DNA of 64,000 bases from the human T2T-CHM13v2.0 reference genome, Homo sapiens, in assembly GCF_009914755.1 (NCBI RefSeq), contig NC_060926.1. One strand, given 5' to 3'. Within the stretch, counting starts at the first letter, position 1; each line of letters starts with the position of its first letter. The notes under the pieces were generated by a model. It was not told the DNA's origin, ran no database searches, and saw nothing but the letters and a program-made list of their open reading frames with translations. Shown piece after piece: positions 1,801 to 37,685 of the stretch. The translations under genes and the position numbers were made by a program.

Positions 1801-2190
1801 CGACATTCCTCACAATATCGCAGAAAATATACACCCCCCTGTGATGTTGTTCCTGACAGCCAGGGGTAGACGATGAGATTACTCCAAATATCGAACTGAG
1901 TGTACATCCCTTCTGTGATGTTGTTGCTAATATCCAGGCGGGGAGAGGACACCTGCGCATCAGCGGGGGGTGCCCATGCCCCTGCGATGTAGCTCCTAAT
2001 ATCCATGGGGAAGGGGGGTAGATATTATTCCCCGCATCACTGTGGATGTCCACCCCCTGCGATGCGGCTCGTAATATCGGGGGTGGGGGGGTGATGTTTC
2101 TCCCCGCATCGCGGGGGTCGCCTGCCCCCCTGCGATGTGTATCGTAATATCCAGTGAAGGAGAGGGGGATGATATTACTACCTGCATGGT
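1800..2190 (-). repeat. SATR-type satellite in inverted orientation, including CpG-rich monomers (1940-2185)
   Basis: Reverse-complement monomers such as TGTGATGTTGTTCCTGACAGCCAGGGG...GATTACTCCAAATATCG. Confidence 0.85.
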
Positions 2191-2214
2191 GGCGGAGTCT
2201 ATCCGAGGTCGGGA

Positions 2215-3386
2215 TACTATACACCCCCTGGGATATTGGGAGTACAACCCCTGTGATATTGGGAGTAGTATCATTCTCTTCTCCCCCTGAATATTAGGGA
2301 CAGTATCATGGAGGGGGTGTTCACCCCCTGCCATATTGTGAGTCATGTCATTTTCTCTACCCGTGGACATTAGAAACAATATCACAGGGGTGGTGTACAA
2401 CCCTGCGAAATTGGGAGATATATCTTCCTCTCCACTTTTAGATACTAGGGACAACATCACAGGGGAGGTCTACATCTTCTGGATAATTGGGATTGATACT
2501 GTCCTCTCCCCACCTGGATATTAGCAACAGCATCACAGAAGGGATGTACACCCAGTTCGATACTGGGAAAAATATCACAAGGGCGTGTATTCCCCCTTCC
2601 ATATTGGGAGTCTTATCATACTTGCCTTCCATATATTAAGAAGAATATCAAAGGGGGGTGGACACTTTGACGATATAGGGAGTAACGTCATTCTCTCTAC
2701 CCCTGGATATTAGTAGCAATATCACAGGAAGATGTACATTTCTTGTGATATTGAGAGTTGTATTATTGTCTTCCCCGCTGGATATTAAAAACAATACCAC
2801 AAGGGGTGTCAAACCACCTGCCAAATTTCAGGGAATTTTATCCTCTCCCCCCTGCCCCGGATATTAGAGACAATAACACAGGGATAAAGTACACCCACTG
2901 CTTTATTGGGAGAAGTATCATCCTCTCCTCCCTTGGATATTAGGAACAATATCACAGGGGAGGCGTACTGCCTCTGCGATATTGGGAGTACAATTATACT
3001 CTCTTACCCTGGATATTAGAAAGGGTATCAGAGGGGGAGGGTGTACATTCCCTGTGATATTCAATGTAATCTTATACTCTCCCTCCCAGGGTATTAAGAA
3101 CAATATTACGGGAGTGGTGTACACCCTCTGCGATATTGAGAGTCATATCATCCTCTTTCGCTCTGGATATTAGGAACAATGTCACAGGGTTGTGTACACC
3201 CCCTGTGATATTGGGAGTAATATCATCCTCTCTCCCTGTGGATATTAGGAAGAGTATCACAGGGCTGTGTACACCCCCTGGGGTACTGGGAGTAATATCA
3301 TCCTCTCTCCCTCTGGATAGTAGGAAGAGTTTCACAGGGGTGTGTACACCCCCTGCGATATTGGGAGTAATATCATCCGGTCGCCC
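2215..3386 (+). repeat. SATR-type satellite, forward, left of provirus
   Basis: Monomer starts at 3207, 3282 and 3357 give a 75-bp period. Confidence 0.9.
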
Positions 3387-3750
3387 TGAGGAGAGAAGCC
3401 ATTTCTCTACTGTCTTCTGTCTCTGAAGAGGAGGAGGAAGTAAAAGTTGAAAAACAACAGGAATGAAGTCAGCGGCAAGACCAGCCGGTGGCACTGAGGA
3501 GCCCACCTGAGGTGAAAATATTAACCACCCCCTCCCCCACTCTAAGCACATGTGCTCTCAATCCATCACGACCCTTTCACGTGGAACCCCTTAGAGTTGT
3601 AAGCCCTTAAACAGGCCAGGAACTCTGTCTTCCTTCAGGGAGCTTGACTCTTAAGATGCAAGTGTGCCGACGCTCCCAGCCAAATAAAAAAACCTCTTCC
3701 TTCTTTATTCCGCTATCTGAGGGGTTTTGTCCGTGGCCAGTCCTGCTCCA
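3387..3750 (+). promoter_or_regulatory. 5' LTR of HERV-E (LTR2 family, probably LTR2C-like)
   Basis: Starts TGAGGAGAGAAGCC and ends GTCCTGCTCCA, 5 nt before the PBS. TATA-like CTTAAA at ~3606, AATAAA at 3683-3688, CACGTG at 3578-3583. Confidence 0.85.
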
Positions 3751-3755
3751 TTTCT

Positions 3756-3830
3756 TGGTTCCCTGACCGGGAATTGAACGCAGGCTGCGGTGGCGAGAGT
3801 GCCAAATCCTAAGCACTAGACCACCAGGGG
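3756..3830 (-). tRNA. Full-length tRNA-Glu(CTC)-derived copy with 3' CCA, extending the PBS (pseudogene)
   Basis: TGG followed by 72 nt aligning without gaps to the reverse complement of human tRNA-Glu-CTC (sequence from memory), about 62/72 identities; 6 mismatches are CpG transitions. Anticodon CTC = plus-strand GAG at 3795-3797. Canonical 18-nt PBS = 3756-3773. Confidence 0.92.
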
Positions 3831-5331
3831 AACTTAGAATCTTGTGGGAAATAGATTGCCCACCATTAGAAGTGGGTTGGCCATCAGAAGGAAGCCTGGA
3901 CAGGTCCCTTGTTTCCAAGGTGTCGCACAAGGTAACTGGTAAAGGATACCTAGACCAGTTCCCATACATAGACACTTGGTGACAGCTGGTGCTAGACCCC
4001 CCACAGTGGCTAAGAGGGCAGGCAGCAGCAATACTAGTAGCAAAGGGACAGATAGCTAAGGAAGGATCCCTCTCCACCCACCCAGGGAAATCAACTCCTG
4101 ACGTTCTGTTTGACGCAATGTCAGAAGATCCATTGCAGGAGATGGCACCAGAGATCCCAGTGGTGCCCCCTCTTACCAGGGAAAGAGGCTCCCCACTCTT
4201 GAGCCCACAGTGCTTGCACCTCCGCAAGACAAGCATATCCCTAGGCTACCCAGAGTAGACAAGAGAGGAGGTGAAGATTCAGGAGAAACCCCTCCCTTGG
4301 CAGCTCATTTATGACTCAAAACGGGGATACAAATGCCCCTGAGAGAGCAGCGGTATACTGGGATAGATGAGGATGGTCACGTGGTGGAGAGGCGTGTTTT
4401 TAGGTACCAGCCCTTCACCTCTGCCGACCTTCTTGACTGGAAAAACAATACCCCATCCTATACCGAAAAGCCACAAGCTCTAATTGACTTGCTCCAAACT
4501 GTTATCCAGACCCACAACCCCACCTGGGCTGATTGCCACCAGTTGCTTATGTTCCTCTTTAACAGAGATGAAAGGCAGAGCGTGCTCCAAGCGGCAACTA
4601 AGTGGCTAGAGGAACATGCACCAGCTGATTATCAAAACCCGCAAGAGTATGGAAGGACCCAGTTACCAGGAACCGACCGGCAGTGGGACCCACATGAAAG
4701 AGAGGATATACAAAGGCTACACGGAGACAGGGAAGCTCTCTTGGAAGGATTAAGGAGGGGAGCTCAGAAGGCTACAAACATTAGCAAGGTCTCTGAGGTC
4801 ATTCAGGGAAAAGAAGAAAGTCCAGCACAATTCTACGAGAGACTGTGTGAGGCCTATGGTATGTATACTCCCTTTGATCCCGATAGCCCTGAAATCAGCA
4901 CATGATTAACATGGCTTTAGTCTGTCAAAGTGCAGAAGACATGAGAAGAAAACTGCAGAAACAGGCTGGGCTTGCAGGGATGAATACATCACAATTACTA
5001 GAAATAGCTAGCCAGGTGTTTGTAAACAGGGATGCAGTAAGCCGTAAGGAAAACGGCAAAGAGAATGGAGGTCAGGCCCGGTGAAATGCTGACCTGTTTG
5101 TTAGCTGCAGCAATCAGAGGGGCCCCCCCAAAGAGGCAAGGGAAGGGGGGCCCTGGGAAAGAAACTCAGCTTGACTGTCAGAGTTTGCAGCATAACCAGT
5201 GTGCTTATTGTAAAGAAATAGGACAGTGGAAGAACAAATGCCCTCAGCTCAAAAGAAAACAAGGTGACTCCAAGCAGGAGGCCCCAGACAAGGAAGAAGG
5301 GGCCCTACTCAACCTGGCAGAAGGGTTATTG
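3831..5331 (+). pseudogene. gag: HERV-E gag remnant, N-terminally deleted, with stops and frameshifts
   Basis: MA-like LEVGWPSEGSLD and DQFPYIDTW; CA YQPFTSADLLDWK and HNPTWADCHQLL; MHR VIQGKEESPAQFYERLCEAY; NC knuckle CAYCKEIGQWKNKC (His to Gln) at ~5200-5241. Confidence 0.93.
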
Positions 5332-5682
5332 GGCTCAAGCATCCCCAAAGAGCCTCTGGTCAGAATGACAGTTGGGGGAAGAGACATTGATTTTCTTGTA
5401 GATAGCGGTGCTGAACATTCGCTAGTAACCGCCCCGGTCGCCCCCTTATCCAAAAAGACTATTGACATCATCGGAGCCACAGGGGTTTCAGCAAAGCAAG
5501 CTTCCTGCTTGCCTCGGACTTGTACTGTAGGAGGACATAAAGTCATTCATCAGTTTTGGTACATGCCTGACTGTCCCTTGCCCTTGTTGGGAAGGGACTT
5601 GCTTAGCAAGCTGAGAGCCACTATCTCTTTGACAGAGCACGGCTCTTTCCTACTAAAGTTACCCAGAACGGGAGTCATTATG
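5332..5682 (+). pseudogene. pro: HERV-E aspartic protease domain (reading frame open)
   Basis: FLVDSGAEHS (DSG at 5401-5409), IIGATG flap, CPLPLLGRDLL. Confidence 0.93.
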
Positions 5683-8353
5683 ACGCTTATGGTCCCCCAA
5701 GAGAAGGAATGGAGACTTTTCTTAACTGAGCCAGGCCAAGAGAGAAGACCAGCTCTGAGTAAGCAGTGGCCAAGAGTATGGGCAGAAGACAACCCTCTGG
5801 GATTGGCAGTCAACCAAGCCCCTGTACTCATAGAAGTTAAGCCTGGGGCCCAGCTGGTTAGGCAAAAACAGGACCCGGTCCCCAGAGAAGCTCTTCAAGG
5901 TATCCAGGTCCGTCTCAAGCACCTAAGAACTTTTGGAATGATTGTTCCTTGTCAGTCTCCATGGAACACTCCCCTCCTGCCTGTTCCCAAGCCACGGACC
6001 AAGGACTACCGGCCGGTACAGGATTCGCGCTTGCTTAATCAAGCTACACTGACTTTACATCCAACAGTACCTAACCAGTCCACATTGTTGGGGTTGCTGC
6101 CAGCTGAGGACACCTTGGACCTGAAAGACGCTTTCTTTCCTATCAGATTAGCCCCTGAGAGGCAGAAGCTGTTTGCCTTTCAGTGGGAAGATCCAGAGTT
6201 AGGTGTCTCTACTCAGCACACTTGGACCGGGCTTCCCCAAGGGTTCAAGAACTCCCCCACCATCTTCGGGGAGGCATTGGCTCGAGACCTCCAGAAGTTT
6301 CCCACCAGAGACCTAGGCTGCGTGTTGCTCCAGTAGGTTGATGATCTTTTGCTGGGACACCCCACGGCAGTCGGGTGCGCCAAGGGAACAGATGCCCTAC
6401 ACCAGCACCTGGAGGTCTGCGGGTATAAGGTGTCCAAGAAAAAAAGCTCAGATCTGCCGACAGCAGGTACGTTACTTGGGATTTACTATCCAACAGGGGG
6501 AACACAGCCTGGGATCAGAAAGAAAGCAGGTCATTTGCAATCTAGCAGAGCCTAAGAGCAGTAGGCAGGTGAGAGAATTCTTAGGAGCTGTGGGGTTTTG
6601 TAGACTGTGGATCCCAAACTTTGCAGTATTAGCCAAGACTTTGTAAGAGGTCACAGAGGGGGTGGGGACTGGGAATCTTTAGAATGGGGATCCCAACAAC
6701 AGCAAGTCTTTCATGAGTTAAAGGAAAAACTTATGTCAGCCCCAGCCCTGGGGCTACCCAATCTGACAAAGCCTTTTACATTGTATGTGTCAGAGAGAGA
6801 AAAGATGGCAGGTGGACTTTTAACCCAAACTGTGGGGCCCTGGCTGAGGCCGGTGGCCTAGCGCTCTAAACAACTAGATGGGGTTTCTAAAGGATGGCCC
6901 CCCTGTTTGAAGACCTTGGCAGCAACTGCCCTACTAGTACAAAAAGCAAATAAGCTGACTCTTGGGCAAAACCTGAACATAAAGGCTTCCCATGCTGTGG
7001 TGACTTTAATGAATACTAAAGGACATCATTGGCTAACGAATACTAGACTTACCAAGTACCAAAGTTTGCTCTGTGAAAATCCCCGTATAACCATTGAAGT
7101 TTGTAACACCCTACACCCCGCCACCTTGGTCCCGGTATCACAGAGCCCTGTTGAGCATGATTGTGTAGAAGTGTTGGACTCAATTGACTCTAGCAGACCT
7201 GACCTCCAGGACCAGCCTTGGGCATCAGTAGACTGGAAACTATACGTGGATGGGAGCAGCTTCTTCAACCCACAAGGAGAGAGATGCGCAGGGTATTCAG
7301 TGGTAACCCTGAAGCCAGATGGTTGCCCCAGGGCACTTCAGCCCAGAAAGCTGAACTCATTGCTTTCATTCGGGCCTTAGAACTCAGTGAGGCTGAGACT
7401 GTCAACATTTACACTGATTCTCGGTTTGCCTTTTTAACCCTTCAAGTGCATGGAGCATGATAGAAAGAAAAGGGCCTATTGAACTCTGGGGGAAAAGACA
7501 GAAAATATCAACAAGAAATCTTGCAATTATTAGAAGCAGTATGGAAACCCCACAAGGTGGCAGTTATGCATTGCAGAGGACACCAGCGAGCTTCCACCTT
7601 GCTGGGTTTGGGGAATTCCCGCACTGACTCAGAGGCTCAAAAAGCAGCATCTGCCCCTTTCCAGGCATCAGTCACAGCTCCTCTGCTCCCTCAAGCACCT
7701 GATCTTGGACCTACTTCTTCTAAAGAATAAAAGGACTTTCTCCAGGTAGAGGGAAGGACAAGTGATGGAGGAAGGATGGATTCGGTTACCAGATGGGAGA
7801 GTAGCTGTGCCACAGCTGCGAGGAGCTGCAGTTGTAGTGGCTGTGCATGAAACCACCCATCAATGTCAGGAGTCACTGGAAAAGTTGTTAGGCCAGTATT
7901 TCTACATCTCGCATTTGTCAGCCCTCGCCAAAACGGTGACACAGCGGTGTGTTACCTGCCGACAGCATAATGCGAGGCAAGGTCCAGCCATTCCACCCAG
8001 CATACCAGCTTATGGAGCAGCCCCCTTTGAAGATCTCCAGGTAGACTTCACAGAGATGACAAAGTGTGGAGGTAACAAGTATTTACTAGTTCTTGCACAT
8101 ACCTACTCTGGGTGGGTGGAGGCCTATCCAACACGAACTGAGAAAGCTCGTGAAGTAACTCCTGTGCTTCTTCGAGATCTGATTCCGAGATTTCGACTGG
8201 CCTTATGAATTGGCTCAGATAACGGGCCTGCATTTTTGGCTGCCTTGGTACAGAAGACGGCAAAGGTATTGGGGATCACACAGAAACTGCATGCCGCCTC
8301 CCGGCCTCAGAGTTCCAGAAAGGTGGAGCGGATGAATCAGACTATCAAAAAGA
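5683..8353 (+). pseudogene. pol: HERV-E pol remnant (RT, RNase H, integrase to just past the catalytic Glu)
   Basis: SPWNTPLLPV, LDLKDAFF, LPQGFKNSPTIF, YVDD read as *VDD (TAG 6334-6336); RNase H YVDGSS, SAQKAELIA, NIYTDS; [33 protein letters not shown]; several stops and frameshifts. Confidence 0.95.
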
Positions 8354-10331
8354 GTATTATTGTCTTCCCCGCTGGATATTAACAACACCACAAGGGGCGT
8401 CAAACCATCTGTTAAATTTGAGGGAATGTTATCCTCTCCCCCTGTCCCCCGGCCCCGGATATTAGAGACAATAACACAGGGGTAATGTATACCCACTGTT
8501 TTGTTGGGAGTAACATCATCCTCTCCTTTCTTGGATGTTAGGAACAATATCACACTGTGCATGTACGCCTGTCATGAAATTCAATGGAATGTCATCCTGT
8601 GCCTCCCTGGATATGATGAACAATATCACGGGGGAAGTACAACTTCTGAGATATTGGGAGTGATCTCATCCTCTCCCCTCCGGGAGTTAGGGACAATATC
8701 ACAGGGGTAGTGCACACCCTCTGGGATGTTGGGACTAATATCAACCTCCCGCCCCCTGGATATTAAAAACCGTATCACAAGGGGTGTGTACACACACTTC
8801 GATATTGGTATTAATACCATCTTCTCCCTCTTTGGATATTCGGTGCCATATTTCAGGTGGGGTATACACCACCTGCAATATTGGAAGTAATATGATTTTC
8901 TCCACCCCTTGATATCAGAAACAATATCACAGGGGGTGTGAACAACCCCTGCAATATTTGGAGTAATATCATCGTCTCCCCTCGTGAATAGTAACAATAT
9001 CACAGGTGGGTGGTATACACCCCCTTTGATATTTGATATCATCCTCTTCCCCCTTGGATATTAAGAACAATATCAGGGGATGTACAGACCCTGCGACATT
9101 TGCTGTCATATAATTGTCTCTCCCTTAGATATTAGGAAAAAATGTCACTGGGGATGTGAACATCCCTGCGATATTGGGAGTAGTATCATCCTCTCCCCCC
9201 TTGCATATTAGAAACAATATCACAGGTGAGGTGTACTGCCTCTGTGATATTGGGATTACAATTATCCTCTCTTCCCCTGGATATTAGGAAGCGTATCAGA
9301 GGGGGAGGGTGTACATTCCCTGCGATATTCAATGTCACCTTATCCTCTCCCTCCCAGGGTGTTCAGAACAATAGGACAGGAGGGGTGTACACACCCTGCG
9401 AAATTGAGAGTCATATCATCCTCTTTCGCTCTGGATATTAGGAACAATGTCACAGGGTTGTGTACACCCCCTGCGATATTAGGAGTAATATCATCCTCTC
9501 TCCCTGTGGATATTAGGAAGAGTATCACAGGGCTGTGTAAACCCCCTGTGGTACTGGGAGTAATATCATCCTCTCTCCCTCTGGGTATTAGGAAGATTTT
9601 AACAGGGTGTGTACACCCCCTGCGATATTGGGAGTAATATCATCCTCTCCACCCAGGAAATGACTAACAAGGTCACGGGGGAGTGTACTCCCCCTGCGAT
9701 ATTGGGAGTAATGTCATCCTCCCCAAACCTGGATGTTAGCAACAAGATCACAGAGGGGGTGTACACACCCTGCGACATTGGAAGTAATATGATCCTCTCC
9801 CCACCTGGATATGGGGAAAAATATCACAGTGCGGGTATACATTTCTTATGCTGTTGGGAGTAATATTCTTTTCCTTTCTGGATATTAGGAAGAACATCAC
9901 AGGGTTGCTGTACAATTACTTCGATATTAGGAGTAATATCATCCTCTCCCCATTGGAACATTAGGAACAATATCCCGGGGGGTGTCCACCCTCTGTGATA
10001 TTGGGGGTAATATCATCTTCTATTTCCCTGGATATTGGGCACAATATCACAAAAGGTGTACAACCCCTGCGATATTGGGAGTAATATCATACTCTCCTTC
10101 CCTGGATATTAGAAAACAGTATCGTCAGGGCTGAATCCCCCCTGCGATAATGGGAGTAATATTTTCTCTTTCACAGGCCATTAGGAACAATATCACAGCG
10201 GGTGTTTACACACTCTGCGATATTGGAGGTAACATCGTCCTCTGACAAACAGAATATTACCAACAATATCAAACAGGGGTGGTGTACACCCCCTGTGATA
10301 TTGGGAGTAATATCATTCTCTCCACCTCCGG
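8354..10331 (+). repeat. SATR-type satellite, forward, right of provirus
   Basis: Same 75-bp monomer; ends abruptly after ...ATCATTCTCTCCACCTCCGG. Confidence 0.9.
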
Positions 10332-10394
10332 AGAGGTTTAAAAAGATAACCTCAGGCTAAAACAACTGACTGATTCAAATGTTGATGTGCCCAT

Positions 10395-10555
10395 CCCTGA
10401 GCTGGGTGCAAATTATTTAACTTCCTTTGGCCTTTTGTTATCTGTAAAAAGGGAAGATTAATATCCAACTTTTAATTTTATGTGAGATTAAATGAAATAA
10501 TGCTGGTAAAGCACTTAATGTTTTAAGTGGCTGGTACTCAAAACAATGTTAGTTC
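10395..10555 (+). mobile_element. MIR fragment
   Basis: Core TTATTTAACTTC...ATCTGTAAAA...GTGAGATTAAATGAAATAATGC..GTAAAGCACTTA. Confidence 0.7.
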
Positions 10556-10578
10556 TTTCAACAAAAAACACCATGAAG

Positions 10579-12410
<1,832 letters not shown>

Positions 12411-13149
12411 CATTGCTGTAAAATAACTTATGTTACTTATTATCTTATCATGATTACAACAAATCATCAGCAAAGCCATAGGCCTCATGGAGAATGGGAA
12501 CAGGACCTGCAGCTGTTCAGGATACATCAGTAGCTCTCTGACTCCAATATTTTGTGGTCCCATCAGAACTGAGCATCTGCCGTTCCCTCATCTAGTGACT
12601 CTGTTCTCATGACTCAGATTCTCTCTCGACTCTCCAATTATTTCTCCTGCTGCCTCTCTCATTACTTCTCTTGGTTCCCATTGTAATTTTTCCTATGCTT
12701 CTCTCTCACCCCCAGAGAGAATAAGATTTGGTGAGTTAATTAGCATTCCCTGACTATTGGTCTGATGTCTCATATCCTGCCATCTCAAAAGCCTCCACTG
12801 TCCTCGCTTATAACATCTAGAGGTGCCTTTGTTAGAACTCCATTTCTGGTCCAGTCTGTATGGCCAGGGTGGCAGGGTCTCATGACACACTTCATGGCAA
12901 TTTGGGTGGAAGGCAGGAACTCCAGGGGCTGTGAGGGTGGTTGAGCCCTTGAAGGTTCCTGAGTCATTGTGATGACCATGTTCAGTCATGGGGAAACAGT
13001 GCCCCTCAGCTCCCCAGTGTCTGAGTCTCCTGCCCTGGTTTTGGGGCACACATCGCTGTAGCAGGAAGGATCCAAACGTGTGTGTTTTACACCCATAATA
13101 CTGCTTTAATATCTTGCCCTGATAAGGTCGCGATGTTACCAGGGCTGTC

Positions 13150-13560
13150 TTGTCAAATACATGCTTAACGTCAACTCTTAACTCGTCAAAGAAACCCAGA
13201 AAAACCTGTTGATCAAACAAAGCTAAGGGAGAACATCACCTTGACAAAGTCTTCATAATGTCTCATCACGGGAAAGTACAGAGAGATGTTTTCGGGTTTT
13301 TAGGACCAGCGTTGAGGATTTTCAGGCAGGTCTTGCAAGGTGGGGAACTGGTCAGAATGAGGTAGAGTTTATGACATAATAGCTTTGCGTGGTGGCTCCA
13401 TGAGACGAGGGTCCTGAGGGATCTGTCGATGGGCAAGCTGCTGGTTGGTTCATACTCCTGTCTTCCGGGGCTATTAGTTTCCTGGAGCAAGCAACTCACA
13501 TATTTTTGCCTGTTCCCAGCACTGGTTAATACAGGGAGAGGCAACTGTGTTTTTAGCTTT
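13150..13560. mobile_element. Probable ancient LTR-class fragment, family uncertain
   Basis: AAGGGAGAACATCACCTTGACAAAGTCTT and flanks resemble old mammalian LTR repeats as I remember them. Confidence 0.35.
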
Positions 13561-14337
13561 TATTGATTTGGTTGTAAAATGTTAAAGCTATTTCTCACAT
13601 ATTCTACTTGAATCTCCCACCTTCAAATCCATCAGTTACAAACAAGGTTTTGGTGTGCGTTGCAGTCATGGGAGACCTTGGGTAGAGAGCAGGTTGTGAC
13701 AGGGTGGCTATGGTTTTTAAATTCCTACGAGACAGTAGGGGGCTTATGTTTTACCCATTGTTTTTCTTCAATTACTTTATGATCCGGAGCACTCTTCAAT
13801 TTTCCTCATCTGTAAAATAAGGAAAATTAATGTATCTACTTCATGGAATTGTGGTGAGGATTAAATGACTTACCTAAGTGTGGAGAACCTGGAAAGTATT
13901 ACTATTATTATTATTTCCCAATTTCTCCACCCTGGACACTGCAGCAGTCTGTCTGCCATGAAGCTGTCTTGGTAAGTCCTGCTGTGGCACTTGCCTAGGT
14001 CTTTTCCTGCCCCCTCATCTTTTGCCCTCAGTAACCACATGCACCAGTATGGCCATAGTGGTTATTTAAAATATTGAGAAACTTCTCTTTAGGTGTGCAA
14101 GCCCCTCAAGTGTCCTCTACCACTGTCACCACCACTGCTCCCTGGAACATTCCATTTTCTCTGTCAGGCAACTAAAGGTTAAACATCTCTTCTGCATTTA
14201 CACAAGGGGCCTCCAAGCCCCTGCTCAGCACCATTCTCTCTCTGCTCCCTGCCTCTGTTCATGGTTCCTGCCCCCCCCACATGCTTTTTGCGCCTCCTTC
14301 TCTCAATATTCACCTGTCCAGATAATAGCGTGCAGAT

Positions 14338-14645
14338 TTGTTGTTGTTGTTGTTGTTGTTGTTGAGACAGAGTCTCGCTCTGTCACCCAGGCTGCAGTGC
14401 AGTGGCACCATCACAGCTCACTGCAGCCTCGACTTCCTGGGCTCAAGTGACCCTCCCACCTCAGCCTTCTGAGTAGCTGGGACTACAGGCACACACTACC
14501 ATGCTTGGCTAATTTTTGTATTTTTTGTAGAGATGGGGTTTCACCATGTTGCCCAGGCTGGTCTCCAACTCCTAGGCTTAAGCAATCCACCCACCTCAGG
14601 CTCCCAAAGTGCTGGGATCACAGGCTTGAGCCACTGTGTGTGGCC
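14338..14645 (-). mobile_element. AluJ with (TTG)n tail
   Basis: Antisense Alu with J-type ACTGCAGCCTCGACTTCCTGGGCTCAAG. Confidence 0.9.
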
Positions 14646-15759
14646 AATGTGCAGCTTTTAAAAAACATGTTGCTACAAGCCATGGGGCTATATACAGGTG
14701 TGTACAGTTACAAGTGAAGACTCTCAGTAGGTTCCTCACTTGAGTTTGATTCCATTTAGGAATCATTTACTGAACCCGGCATTGTGCTGAGCTGGGGGCT
14801 ACCAAACAAGGAACTCTCCTCAAACCCTCAGCTAGAAAATGTCCTCAGCTGGTTCAGACTAAGGCTACATTAGCCCAAAGGCTGAGGGTCCAATATGTCA
14901 GCTCAGCCTCTGGAGTTGAGCCGACTACCTGGCCACAAACCCTCTGCCTGTTCCTACAGAAGTTGGTGACAACCTTAGGCTTGCTCTAATGTAGTTCTCC
15001 TGGTACCAGCCACTACCAGACTAAAGCCCTTTTCTCTCCCACTAGCAGTCTTCTCTGCTTTACACCCAGATGCTCAGTTTCTCCTGCTATGCTCAGTATC
15101 AGAGGCAGTTCGTTTCCATTGGAAGGAATAAAGTGACATTCCTGGTTCACCTCCTGACTGCTAGAGGTAGGTGCCACACGTGTAACCACATACATCATAT
15201 CCCACATTCAGACCAAGCAAGCCCAAGGAGGGATGGGGTGGGGGGCATTCGCCACAGGCCTCCCTCTTTCAACTCCCCCACTGTTTCAAATGTCAGTGGC
15301 AGAAGTTCTGCCGGCTCAGGAGTGGGAGGAGGCACAGTGTGCGTGTGGAGGAACAGATGGCTGCAGGGGGTTGGGGCTGAGCCATTCTCCACCCCGCTGC
15401 CCGGCTTGTCCTGGCAAGTTCGTTCACTGATGGAGCACAGCCTGAGTGTTCACAGCCCCTGCCCCGTCTCCCCAACTCTGCTCTCTCTCACTGCTGTTCA
15501 TCCTCCTTGGAAGCCAGAGTCCTTCTCTCCTTCCACAAGGAATCCTGTCACACTCTGCTTCACAGCCTTTGTTGACTTGCTTGGCTACAGGATAAAATGC
15601 CAACTCGGTACCTTGGCCCAGGTCAACTCCCATGTGCTACTAAAACACAGGGTGCTCCTGCCATTCCTAAAGGGATCACACTCTCTAGACCCTACCCCAG
15701 GGCACAGGCTATTATTTCCACCCGGAATTCTTAGAACCTTCCCTCACACCCTTCCCACC

Positions 15760-16025
15760 TGCTAAACTCCTATTCACCCTTCAAAACCCACTCCAATATT
15801 GCTTCCTCTGGAAAGCTTTCCCCAAGGCCTCTGTGGAAAAAGAGTTGTTCCCACCTCAGGGTCCCCTCAGCACTAGGTTCATACACCTAAATCAGCATAT
15901 TACAGGTCTTACTATAATTTATCTGTTTACATGTCTCTCTCCCCAACTAGTTCACAAGACCCTCAAGTACATAATGCTTGTCTTAAGTTGATGCTCAATG
16001 TATTTAGTGAATAAATGAATGAAAA
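15760..16025 (+). mobile_element. L2 3' fragment
   Basis: TTCCTCTGGAAAGCTTTCCC...GCTCAATGTATTTAGTGAATAAATGAATGAA L2 tail. Confidence 0.65.
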
Positions 16026-17044
16026 GTCAAATACACACTACTTATAGATTCTTCTTAAGCTTTAGTATGCTTCTCAGGGTTATCAATGTTATCGAGCCTC
16101 TGCCTTTCCCTCCCCATTCACCCCTCCTATGGCTTAGGGATTATGGGAAAAGGGAAATTATAATGACTGTGAAGTGGAGCACCCCTGTCTCTAGAACCAC
16201 GTCCCTGCCCATTTTGATATTCTCTCCTCTCTTGGAGGACCCTCTTCCCTGCCAGATTCTCAGGTAGAGAGCAAAGCAAAATACCAACTAGTGTGTGCCT
16301 GTGGCTGAGTCATTTAACATTTCTAGACTGCAGTGTCTCATCTGAGAAATTGGAGATTAGAACCAGGTGACGTCAAAGGCTCTTTGTAGTTCTGACAAGC
16401 TATAAGTCATGAAGAAAGTCGTTGGAATTTTAGGCATCCCCAAAACTAGAGAATAGAAATGTGCACAGGGCCTCTTCAGTGTTCGCATAATATAAATCTG
16501 TTTATCCATGAATAAGGCCGACCCTGGCAGTGGCTTCTTTCTTTCCTGACACATCATTCCCACCACTTCTTGTTCAAAGCCACCTCCTGAATTGTCAGCT
16601 GGGCACCTTGGGAGACTTTGTTTTTGGCTTATTAATGTTGATGGAACAGCATTTTCAACAGCTACAACCAGTATAATCCAAACTTTCCATATTAAAAAAA
16701 AATTTATTTTTTATTTTTTATATTTTTATATTTTTATTTTTTCATATTTTATATTTATTTTTTTCCCACCACCAGTCACCCCAGACTATTTGCAGAGATA
16801 GAGAGGCCTGGGCACTTGTGTTTTGTTGGGGACTCTTTGAACAACCTGTGCAGGTAGTATACTGCACAACTCTAGGGGGCTCCCTTCATACTGAAGTCAT
16901 TGTAGATTTGCACGTGCATTAGGATACGTTTTTTTGCAGATGGCAGCAAAGTATCTGAGGAAAAGTTGCTTTTTCTCACCTGCACAAAGGTACTTAGGAG
17001 GTTAGCTCCAGTGCTAACTTTTTTTCAAAAGGAAACTATGCCAG

Positions 17045-33579: not shown

Positions 33580-37685
<4,106 letters not shown>

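What the first reader, a model, noticed from the sequence alone, without database searches (positions are those of the whole stretch)
3756..3830. An entire mature tRNA-Glu(CTC) is copied into the provirus at the primer-binding site
Seen: after the LTR end (CA, 3750) the 18-nt Glu PBS (TGGTTCCCTGACCGGGAA) runs on without a gap as TTGAACGCAGGCTGCGGTGGCGAGAGTGCCAAATCCTAAGCACTAGACCACCAGGG. That is the reverse complement of the T arm, anticodon arm, D arm and 5' acceptor strand of tRNA-Glu-CTC (~62/72, with mostly CpG-transition mismatches). Established: plus-strand strong-stop synthesis normally halts after 18 nt of primer at m1A58, so proviruses carry only 18 tRNA-complementary bases. Inference: RT read through the whole primer, perhaps an under-modified tRNA, and the product was fixed in the germ line. 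Annotation tools probably list this as a separate tRNA pseudogene and miss the mechanistic link; I cannot say whether it has been described.
Basis: partly seen in the sequence, partly recalled or inferred. Interest (0 to 1): 0.85.

Follow-up and report, generated by a model that had tools for sequence, protein, structure and literature searches.

The report
Whole primer tRNA fossilised in a provirus
An ancient HERV-E-type provirus kept a copy of its entire tRNA-Glu primer where about 610-620 bases of leader and gag start should be, a one-off reverse-transcription accident that host segmental duplication later multiplied.

Summary
Window 3756-3829 (+) is the complement of CCA plus tRNA-Glu(CTC) nucleotides 72 to 2. 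It matches 65 of 74 bases, and 6 of the 9 mismatches are CpG transitions. It runs on in register from the 18-nt primer-binding site.

Canonical HERV-E-type copies lack it. Their match to the window stops at 3773/3774, the end of the binding site. It resumes at 3822, about 100 nt inside gag.

The tRNA copy joins gag at a 9-nt microhomology and replaces about 610-620 nt of leader and gag start. I read this as plus-strand strong-stop DNA that copied the whole primer and then completed strand transfer at the wrong site.

The locus is not unique. Nine loci carry the same junction. All with an intact LTR start (8 of 8) share the same host flank, and the ninth has a truncated LTR preceded by the same repeat, so one dead-on-arrival provirus was spread by segmental duplication, not retrotransposition.

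One orphan fragment looks like an L1-mediated chimeric retrocopy of a Pol III-type antisense transcript that starts at the embedded tRNA.

The kind of accident is known from cell culture. I found no paper describing this germ-line example.

The parts
2240..3386 (.). Host flank: array of about 75-bp tandem repeats into which the provirus is set
   Evidence: the repeat finder families D1-D5. The flank is shared in one continuous alignment with the other tRNA-bearing loci. The left limit is approximate.
3387..3750 (+). 5' LTR (TG...CA) of a HERV-E-type provirus
   Evidence: Aligns at 84-87% to the LTRs of canonical copies L033, L034 and L037 from 3386-3390 onward; in a fourth, L042, only 3575-3773 aligned (82%). 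No second copy of the LTR was found in the window. The subfamily name was not testable, as no Dfam is on hand.
3683..3692 (+). AATAAA followed by an A run. On the minus strand this is a T7 run that would stop RNA polymerase III
   Evidence: Read from the sequence. The orphan copy L005 ends exactly in this run.
3756..3773 (+). 18-nt primer-binding site, the complement of the 3' end of tRNA-Glu including CCA
   Evidence: The match to canonical copies ends here.
3774..3821 (+). 48 nt found only in the tRNA: the complement of the T arm, variable loop, anticodon arm and D arm
   Evidence: Absent from canonical copies.
3822..3830 (+). Junction. CACCAGGG is shared by the tRNA 5' end (as complement) and gag. 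3830 is G where both predict A
   Evidence: 9 of 9 identity between tRNA and canonical gag, 13 of 16 over a longer stretch. (G in 9 of 9 copies). Canonical matches begin at 3822.
3759..3830 (-). The same bases read as the annotated tRNA pseudogene TRE-CTC7-1
   Evidence: Hub table; Rfam tRNA 19.3 bits at 3759-3830 minus strand.
3831..4905 (+). gag without its start: matrix from profile position 39 onward, then capsid p30
   Evidence: Pfam Gag_MA matches residues 28-71 of frame 3767-3982, at profile positions 39-85 of 113. Gag_p30 lies in 4315-4905. In canonical copies the ATG lies about 100 nt before the point matching 3831.
5041..8208 (+). Broken pro-pol: protease, reverse transcriptase, RNase H, integrase zinc finger and part of the core
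   Evidence: Pfam RVP, RVT_1, RT_RNaseH_2, RNase_H, zf-H2C2 and rve, spread over several frames.
8209..8360 (+). End of the retroviral sequence inside integrase. No env and no 3' LTR follow
   Evidence: Sequence read. The 75-bp repeat resumes at about 8361. This junction recurs at 40 or more places. The limit is approximate.
8361..10323 (.). The 75-bp tandem repeat resumes (host flank)

Best explanation
This is the fossil of one failed round of reverse transcription.

In a HERV-E-type virus primed by tRNA-Glu(CUC), plus-strand strong-stop DNA did not stop after 18 nt of the primer. It copied the primer to its 5' end. Its new 3' end (...CACCAGGGA) could not pair at the binding site. It paired instead with a 9-nt identical stretch of minus-strand DNA about 100 nt inside gag, and synthesis went on from there. 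An equivalent reading is that the growing minus strand jumped to the read-through tail at that point.

The product carried LTR, binding site, 48 tRNA-only bases, then gag from about codon 31. It had lost about 520 nt of leader and the first ~30 gag codons, including the start codon.

It was integrated into a 75-bp tandem-repeat array in the germ line. It could not spread as a retrovirus. Host segmental duplication then copied it, within the duplicon that neighbours OR7E pseudogenes here.

Shown: the anatomy, the microhomology, the absence from canonical copies and the shared flanks.

Inferred: the order of strand events, hypomodification of the primer, that loss of the leader is what blocked spread, and the age (roughly 25-45 million years).
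For: - **tRNA copy.** The complement of CCA plus tRNA-Glu(CTC) lies in register with the binding site through tRNA nucleotide 2: 65 of 74 in the window, and 82-92% in the eight other copies. At each of the 74 positions at least 2 of 9 copies keep the gene's base. The base opposite the 19th nucleotide from the 3' end is T in 9 of 9. ARAGORN reads anticodon CTC in the copies in L002 and L029.
- **Canonical copies.** In L033, L034 and L037 the LTR and binding site align up to window 3773/3774 and gag aligns from 3822, with 616-628 nt between the binding site and the point matching 3831. Across a 30-locus set, 21 have gag start sequence where the tRNA sits. Across a 40-hit set, 31 match only from query 45-53.
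- **Microhomology.** CACCAGGGA is shared 9 of 9 (13 of 16 over a longer stretch) between the tRNA 5' end complement and canonical gag. The 9-mer occurs once in each of 5 canonical 3.2-kb loci examined.
- **Gag.** The Gag_MA match starts only at profile position 39.
- **Single origin.** The junction occurs at 10 places with up to 3 mismatches: nine proviral copies plus fragment L005. Seven of 7 other copies with an intact LTR start share the flank ...atcatcctgtcgccc|TGAGGAGAG, while 3 of 3 canonical copies have unrelated flanks. Single alignments run from the flank across the LTR into gag-pol. In a gag-pro tree the 9 tRNA copies and 2 short units form one group (SH-aLRT 94).
- **Literature.** Read-through past the modified T-loop positions gives a plus strand that is not complementary after transfer (PMC8599865, passages read).
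Against: - Base 3830 is G in all nine copies, although both the tRNA and canonical gag predict A. This needs an extra misincorporation, a parental variant, or an early mutation.
- No 3' LTR or target-site duplication survives, so integrase-mediated insertion is inferred only from the exact TG start of the LTR.
- Support for the single group in the tree is 94, below the tool's 95 mark.
- The genome searches score only 40 candidates per call, so further diverged copies could exist.
- I could not read the classical papers on this pathway.
Confidence: 0.85

Rival explanations
1. Two separate events. The read-through tRNA was first inserted next to the binding site with the leader intact. An unrelated deletion later removed the leader and gag start and happened to end at the tRNA 5' end.
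For: All surviving copies descend from one locus, so intermediate states cannot be seen.
Against: The deletion would have to end exactly at the tRNA terminus and at the one 9-nt identity with gag. A read-through tail has no way to be joined to the leader without such a pairing (PMC8599865).
Confidence: 0.06
2. A replicating HERV-E subfamily carried a 75-nt primer-binding region as a family trait and spread by retrotransposition or reinfection.
For: Nine loci on four chromosomes carry it. An extended binding region would in principle be inherited through replication.
Against: Seven of 7 other copies with an intact LTR start share the window's host flank, and alignments cross the LTR boundary. 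The form lacks the leader and the gag start. No copy with different flanks was found.
Confidence: 0.03
3. An ordinary L1-mediated retropseudogene of mature tRNA-Glu landed by chance beside the binding site, or the provirus recombined with a tRNA gene at the DNA level.
For: CCA-bearing tRNA retrocopies exist. L062 appears to be one, with an A-rich tail and a target-site duplication.
Against: There is no poly(A) and no target-site duplication at this locus. The tRNA 3' 18 nt coincide exactly with the binding site. The CCA excludes a tRNA gene as donor. The other end sits on a microhomology with gag.
Confidence: 0.02

Closest known systems
Aberrant retroviral DNAs holding primer-tRNA sequence beyond the binding site, seen in cell culture. 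Colicelli and Goff 1986 described a cloned circular MLV DNA with a tRNA between the LTRs, known to me only as described in PMC12220202 (passages read). Olsen and Swanstrom 1985, on defective DNA made by over-extended plus-strand strong-stop DNA, is recalled and was not read.
   Same: Reverse transcriptase copies a whole or nearly whole tRNA next to the LTR. The product is defective.
   Different: Those are unintegrated or cultured-cell products. This one is integrated in the germ line and fixed, with the junction resolved at a defined 9-nt microhomology inside gag. It was later multiplied by host segmental duplication.
Loss of the m1A58 / m5Um54 stop for HIV-1 plus-strand strong-stop DNA (PMC8599865; passages read)
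   Same: Synthesis continues past the normal stop in the T loop. The extra tail is not complementary after strand transfer.
   Different: That paper concludes that such DNA cannot be integrated. Here one such product was rescued by pairing elsewhere, at the price of a deletion.
Canonical HERV-E proviruses (tRNA-Glu primer, gammaretrovirus-like; PMC4379568, passages read)
   Same: The LTR, the 18-nt Glu binding site and gag-pro-pol are 88-92% identical over gag-pro.
   Different: Canonical copies have about 520 nt of leader and the gag start after the binding site, and no tRNA sequence beyond about 22 nt.
U6/L1 chimeric retrocopies made by L1 template switching (PMC4476161; passages read). This comparison applies to orphan fragment L005.
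   Same: A small RNA ending in a U run is fused to a 5'-truncated L1 3' end with an A tail, and the whole is flanked by a target-site duplication.
   Different: The small RNA here is not a cellular gene product. It is the antisense read of the provirus: tRNA-like head, CCA and antisense U5.

Membership tests
HERV-E-type (gammaretrovirus-like, tRNA-Glu primed) provirus | Binding site complementary to the 3' 18 nt of tRNA-Glu, just after the 5' LTR | tested here: met
   3756-3773 matches CCA plus the tRNA-Glu(CTC) 3' end with one CpG transition (17 of 18), and matches canonical copies.
HERV-E-type (gammaretrovirus-like, tRNA-Glu primed) provirus | Gammaretroviral gag-pro-pol domains in order | tested here: met
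   Gag_MA, Gag_p30, RVP, RVT_1, RNase_H, zf-H2C2 and rve. All are broken by stops and frameshifts.
HERV-E-type (gammaretrovirus-like, tRNA-Glu primed) provirus | LTR of the LTR2 group | not testable with these tools
   No Dfam or Repbase is on hand. The LTR aligns at 84-87% to the LTRs of three canonical copies, and in part (82%) to a fourth.
HERV-E-type (gammaretrovirus-like, tRNA-Glu primed) provirus | Complete provirus with two LTRs and env | tested here: not met
   No second LTR in the window. The sequence ends inside integrase at about 8360.
Plus-strand strong-stop read-through product | Complement of the primer tRNA contiguous and in register with the binding site, on the plus strand, including CCA | tested here: met
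Plus-strand strong-stop read-through product | The copy extends past the 19th nucleotide from the tRNA 3' end | tested here: met
   It extends to tRNA nucleotide 2, positions 1-74 of 75.
Plus-strand strong-stop read-through product | The distal junction lies at a homology between the tRNA end and viral DNA, with loss of the sequence between | tested here: met
   9-nt identity. The 616-628 nt between the binding site and this point in canonical copies are reduced to 57 nt here, 48 of them tRNA-only and 9 the shared junction.
Functional tRNA gene | Scores as a tRNA by structure-aware models | tested here: not met
   Rfam 19.3 bits, below the gathering score of 29. ARAGORN finds none at this place. 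It is a pseudogene, as annotated.
L1-mediated tRNA retropseudogene | A tail and target-site duplication around the tRNA copy | tested here: not met
   Neither is present at 3756-3830, nor in the aligned copies.
Retrotransposing ERV subfamily | Copies at unrelated sites, each with its own flanks | tested here: not met
   Seven of 7 other copies share the window's flank. Alignments cross the boundary.
SINE (for the antisense tRNA-U5 unit) | Pol III-type unit with many dispersed retrocopies | tested here: not met
   Only 2 to 4 orphan fragments were found (L005, L061, perhaps L029 and L062). Pol III transcription was not tested.

The most novel reading that the evidence does not exclude
The read-through provirus created a new Pol III gene on its antisense strand. 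That gene has an intact tRNA-Glu promoter head, CCA and antisense U5/R, and ends at a T run that is the complement of the LTR's poly(A) signal. This is the same sequence arrangement as a tRNA primer joined to minus-strand strong-stop DNA.

Fragment L005 spans from 5 nt before the tRNA 5' end to six T's of that run. It is fused to an L1 3' end and flanked by a target-site duplication. Fragment L061 is a further retrocopy of the same strand. Together they suggest the unit was transcribed and mobilised by L1 in the germ line.

If so, whole-primer read-through is a concrete route by which a retrovirus can seed a tRNA-derived SINE-like element. This bears on the old 'strong-stop DNA' idea for SINE origins, which I recall but did not read.
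Probability: 0.4. Interest if true: 0.7.

Novelty: new member of a known kind. Interest (0 to 1): 0.55.

Why it matters
- **Primer use.** It records directly which tRNA (Glu, anticodon CUC) primed a HERV-E-type virus some tens of millions of years ago.
- **A rescued dead end.** It shows that a read-through strong-stop DNA, usually regarded as a dead end, can be rescued by microhomology and integrated in the germ line.
- **Annotation.** It explains a set of annotated 'tRNA-Glu-CTC pseudogenes' as parts of one provirus lineage.
- **Duplicon history.** The junction is a clean single-origin marker for tracing the segmental duplicon that neighbours OR7E pseudogenes.
- **Origin of new elements.** If the antisense Pol III reading holds, it also shows how a retroviral accident can make a new small-RNA gene that L1 can move.

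Tried and rejected
- **tRNA callers.** ARAGORN on 3000-4600 found no tRNA. Rfam gave only a sub-threshold tRNA match plus a chance lncRNA match.
- **3' LTR.** The repeat finder and BLAST of the LTR against the window found no 3' LTR.
- **Wider flanks.** I worked from the 3-kb loci and two smaller fetches, so the 3' ends of most paralogues were not read.
- **Unique event rejected.** Nine loci carry the junction.
- **Replicating subfamily rejected.** The copies share flanks.
- **Independent origin of L005 and L029 rejected.** L005 carries the gag-derived bases and the G at the junction, and shares two derived changes (positions 25 and 31) with the main copy group. L029 shares the CCAGACC LTR-end variant with L040 and L041.
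- **Primer-linked strong-stop DNA as the source of L005.** I judged this less likely, because L005 ends in the A/T run and not at the start of R. The position of R is inferred, not shown.
- **Olfactory-receptor ORF.** Seven ORFs taken from window 12693-16267 (of 21 ORFs of 70 aa or more in 10300-17000) gave no Pfam match.
- **Papers not held.** Colicelli and Goff 1986, Konstantinova 2006 and Olsen and Swanstrom 1985.
- **Prior description.** Searches found no paper describing a whole tRNA in HERV-E. Subscription journals and Repbase/Dfam notes were not searchable.

Full report
**1. The observation**

Window 3756-3758 reads TGG and 3759-3830 reads as the reverse complement of a tRNA.

True tRNA-Glu(CTC) genes of the same genome are called as such by ARAGORN in L009, L010 and L012. 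They match window 3759-3829 at 87% (E 7.5e-16).

I aligned the window against CCA plus the L012 gene. It matches 65 of 74 positions without a gap, and 6 of the 9 mismatches are CpG transitions. TGG is the complement of the added CCA, so the source was a mature tRNA and not a gene.

As a tRNA the sequence is dead. Rfam gives 19.3 bits against a gathering score of 29, and ARAGORN finds nothing. The hub's table lists it as pseudogene TRE-CTC7-1.

**2. The element around it**

- The LTR runs from TG at 3387 to CA at 3750. Canonical LTRs begin to align at 3386-3390.
- Downstream lie gag, pro and pol domains in the gammaretroviral order. All are broken by stops and frameshifts, and they end inside integrase near 8360.
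- There is no env and no 3' LTR in the window.
- The element sits inside an array of about 75-bp tandem repeats, present on both sides at about 2240-3386 and 8361-10323.

**3. What canonical relatives look like**

A search with the sequence just after the tRNA found many loci. In 21 of the 30 loci fetched, the bases before the point matching window 3826 are not tRNA. They are the start of gag, with an ATG about 100 nt upstream. Nine of the 30, the window included, have the tRNA there.

In three canonical copies (L033, L034, L037) the LTR and binding site align to the window up to 3773/3774, which is exactly the end of the 18-nt binding site. The alignment resumes at 3822. Between the binding site and the point matching 3831 these copies have 616-628 nt. 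The window has 57 nt.

A second search across the junction gave the same picture. Nine of 40 scored hits cross it. The other 31 start at query 45-53, which is window 3820-3827; 26 of them start at 48, window 3822.

So the tRNA-bearing form has lost about 520 nt of leader and the first ~30 gag codons, including the start codon. Pfam's matrix match accordingly begins only at profile position 39.

**4. The junction**

The complement of the tRNA 5' end reads ...GACCACCAGGGA. Canonical gag reads ...TGACACCAGGGAAAC. The two share CACCAGGGA, which is 9 of 9, or 13 of 16 over a longer stretch. The 9-mer occurs once in each of five canonical 3.2-kb loci examined.

This is what is expected if plus-strand strong-stop DNA copied the primer to its end and its 3' terminus then paired with minus-strand DNA at the only good match nearby. 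A published study of HIV-1 states that synthesis beyond the modified T-loop positions gives a strand that is no longer complementary after transfer (PMC8599865, passages read). Here the mismatch problem was solved by a wrong-site transfer, at the price of a deletion.

Whether the plus strand invaded or the growing minus strand jumped cannot be told from the sequence.

One detail is unexplained. Base 3830 is G in all nine copies, where both tRNA and gag predict A.

At each of the other 74 positions at least 2 of 9 copies keep the gene's base. The base opposite the 19th nucleotide from the tRNA 3' end is T in 9 of 9. This fits a primer that was not blocked at that position, but does not prove it.

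**5. One event, copied by the host**

The tRNA-gag junction occurs at 10 places with up to 3 mismatches. These are nine proviral copies on chromosomes 2, 3, 8 and 13, plus fragment L005.

- **Shared flank.** Seven of 7 other copies with an intact LTR start have the same host bases before the LTR as the window. Three of 3 canonical copies have unrelated flanks.
- **Continuous alignments.** Single alignments at 81-92% identity run from the tandem-repeat flank across the LTR into gag-pol.
- **The ninth copy.** The copy at chromosome 3, 128.42 Mb, has a truncated LTR preceded by the same repeat.
- **Tree.** In a maximum-likelihood tree of 3831-5300, the nine tRNA copies and two 'short' units form one group (SH-aLRT 94) apart from 21 canonical copies.

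No tRNA-bearing copy with its own flanks was found. Each DNA search scores at most 40 candidates, so very diverged copies could be missed.

The form therefore spread by segmental duplication, which fits a provirus that had lost its leader and gag start.

The 3' junction (integrase to repeat) is present at 40 or more places, with 143 candidates. Two such units that I read lack window 1810-4287. In the tree they nest within the tRNA group, and I read them as deletion derivatives.

Two of these junctions lie 7.9 and 28.9 kb before the window. Each is about 4.5 kb before an OR7E pseudogene of the hub's table. I found no receptor-like ORF after the window's own unit.

Pairwise identity of 90-94% among the tRNA copies and tip branches of 0.03-0.05 suggest an age of tens of millions of years. 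This is in the range given for HERV-E entry (PMC4379568, passage read). It is a rough inference.

**6. Orphan fragments**

A pattern across LTR end, binding site and T arm found 12 places. Eight are proviral copies, one is a chance hit on a true tRNA gene, and four are short fragments.

- **L005 (chromosome 2, 205.8 Mb).** It holds only window 3687-3835. Read on the other strand it runs from 5 nt before the tRNA 5' end, through the tRNA-like sequence, CCA and antisense U5, to six T's of the run that is the complement of the LTR's AATAAA-A run. It is then fused to a repeat 3' end with an A tail. The whole lies between 13-14-nt direct repeats inside an Alu-like sequence. The fused piece matches a repeat with an A tail at window 37456-37554. 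That it is the L1 3' end is my recollection. This is the architecture of U6/L1 chimeras made by template switching onto Pol III transcripts that end in a U run (PMC4476161, passages read). L005 carries the junction G and two derived changes of the main copy group, so it came from the provirus lineage.
- **L061 (chromosome 2, 11.58 Mb).** This is a 100-nt insert with 31 nt of U5, CCA and the tRNA down to about nucleotide 8. It ends in AAAA on the tRNA-sense strand and is flanked by a 12-nt duplication. It is 94% identical to the tRNA gene, and its source is open.
- **L029 (chromosome 3, 106.9 Mb).** It is in the opposite sense relative to an A tail and ends in the D arm.
- **L062 (chromosome 8, 59.0 Mb).** It looks like an ordinary CCA-bearing tRNA retrocopy with an A-rich tail.

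Two retrocopies of the antisense strand, one with both ends where Pol III would start and stop, suggest that the embedded tRNA once worked as a Pol III promoter. I did not test this further.

**7. Comparison with what is known**

Copies of tRNA beyond the binding site in defective retroviral DNA are known from cultured cells. I could see this only through another paper's description of Colicelli and Goff 1986 (PMC12220202, passages read). My memory of Olsen and Swanstrom 1985 is not checked, because the originals are not held.

Nine searches and passages of the HERV-E review and the HERV classification paper gave no description of a whole tRNA in a HERV-E. Repbase/Dfam notes and subscription journals could not be searched.

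I therefore file it as a new, natural, germ-line member of a known kind of reverse-transcription accident.

**8. Verdict**

The locus has no sign of present function. Its interest lies in four things:
- it is a clean molecular fossil;
- it records which tRNA the virus used as primer;
- it is a single-origin marker for the duplicon;
- it may show a provirus seeding a Pol III retrocopy.

Noticed in passing
L005 = G000:C2:205836415-205836515 (minus strand) and flanks: A 149-nt piece of the provirus (window 3687-3835) is fused to a repeat 3' end with an A tail, between 13-14-nt direct repeats inside an Alu-like sequence. On the tRNA-sense strand it begins 5 nt before the tRNA and ends in a T6 run. 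It looks like an L1 template-switch chimera of a Pol III-type antisense transcript.
   Followed up: partly
L061 = G000:C2:11584702-11584734 (minus strand) and flanks: A 100-nt insert holds 31 nt of U5, CCA and the tRNA-Glu complement down to about nucleotide 8. It is flanked by a 12-nt duplication (TGAGTAGGAT..) and is 94% identical to the tRNA gene. It lacks the derived changes of both provirus subgroups, so it is either an early retrocopy or an independent product.
   Followed up: partly
L029 = G000:C3:106879174-106879242: A fragment running from about the LTR A run to the tRNA D arm, followed on the same strand by an A-rich tail. It shares the CCAGACC LTR-end variant with the chromosome 2 copies L040 and L041. 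Its target-site duplication is unclear.
   Followed up: partly
L062 = G000:C8:59013443-59013475 (minus strand): A CCA-bearing tRNA-Glu retrocopy with an A-rich tail and a 14-nt duplication. The bases after CCA resemble the first ~10 nt of antisense U5, which may be chance.
   Followed up: no
L033, L034, L037 (canonical copies), just after the 18-nt binding site: After one variable base, canonical copies go on with CGA or CAA. This matches tRNA positions 20-22 from the 3' end, so complementarity may reach about 22 nt with a mismatch at the 19th.
   Followed up: no
window 3830: G in all nine copies where both the tRNA 5' end and canonical gag predict A. None of the 21 canonical loci reads CCAGGGGAAC here (16 read AGGGAAAC).
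   Followed up: partly
window 1810-4287, compared with L075 (C2:159326500-159331000) and L076 (C3:128442000-128446500): Two other units of the same duplicon join window 1809 directly to 4288. They therefore lack the repeat array, LTR, tRNA and gag start. The integrase-to-repeat junction (window 8120-8470) recurs at 40 or more places.
   Followed up: partly
L046, L053, L054, L055, L059 (canonical copies): A subgroup of canonical copies has what looks like an 18-nt in-frame deletion in gag that removes the very stretch holding the microhomology (read by eye). They form a group with SH-aLRT 100 in the tree.
   Followed up: no
window 2000-2241: This segment overlaps the RefSeq 'silencer' 2018-2129 of the hub table. 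It matches the paralogues L002, L004, L006, L007 and L008 in the opposite orientation to the rest of the unit.
   Followed up: no
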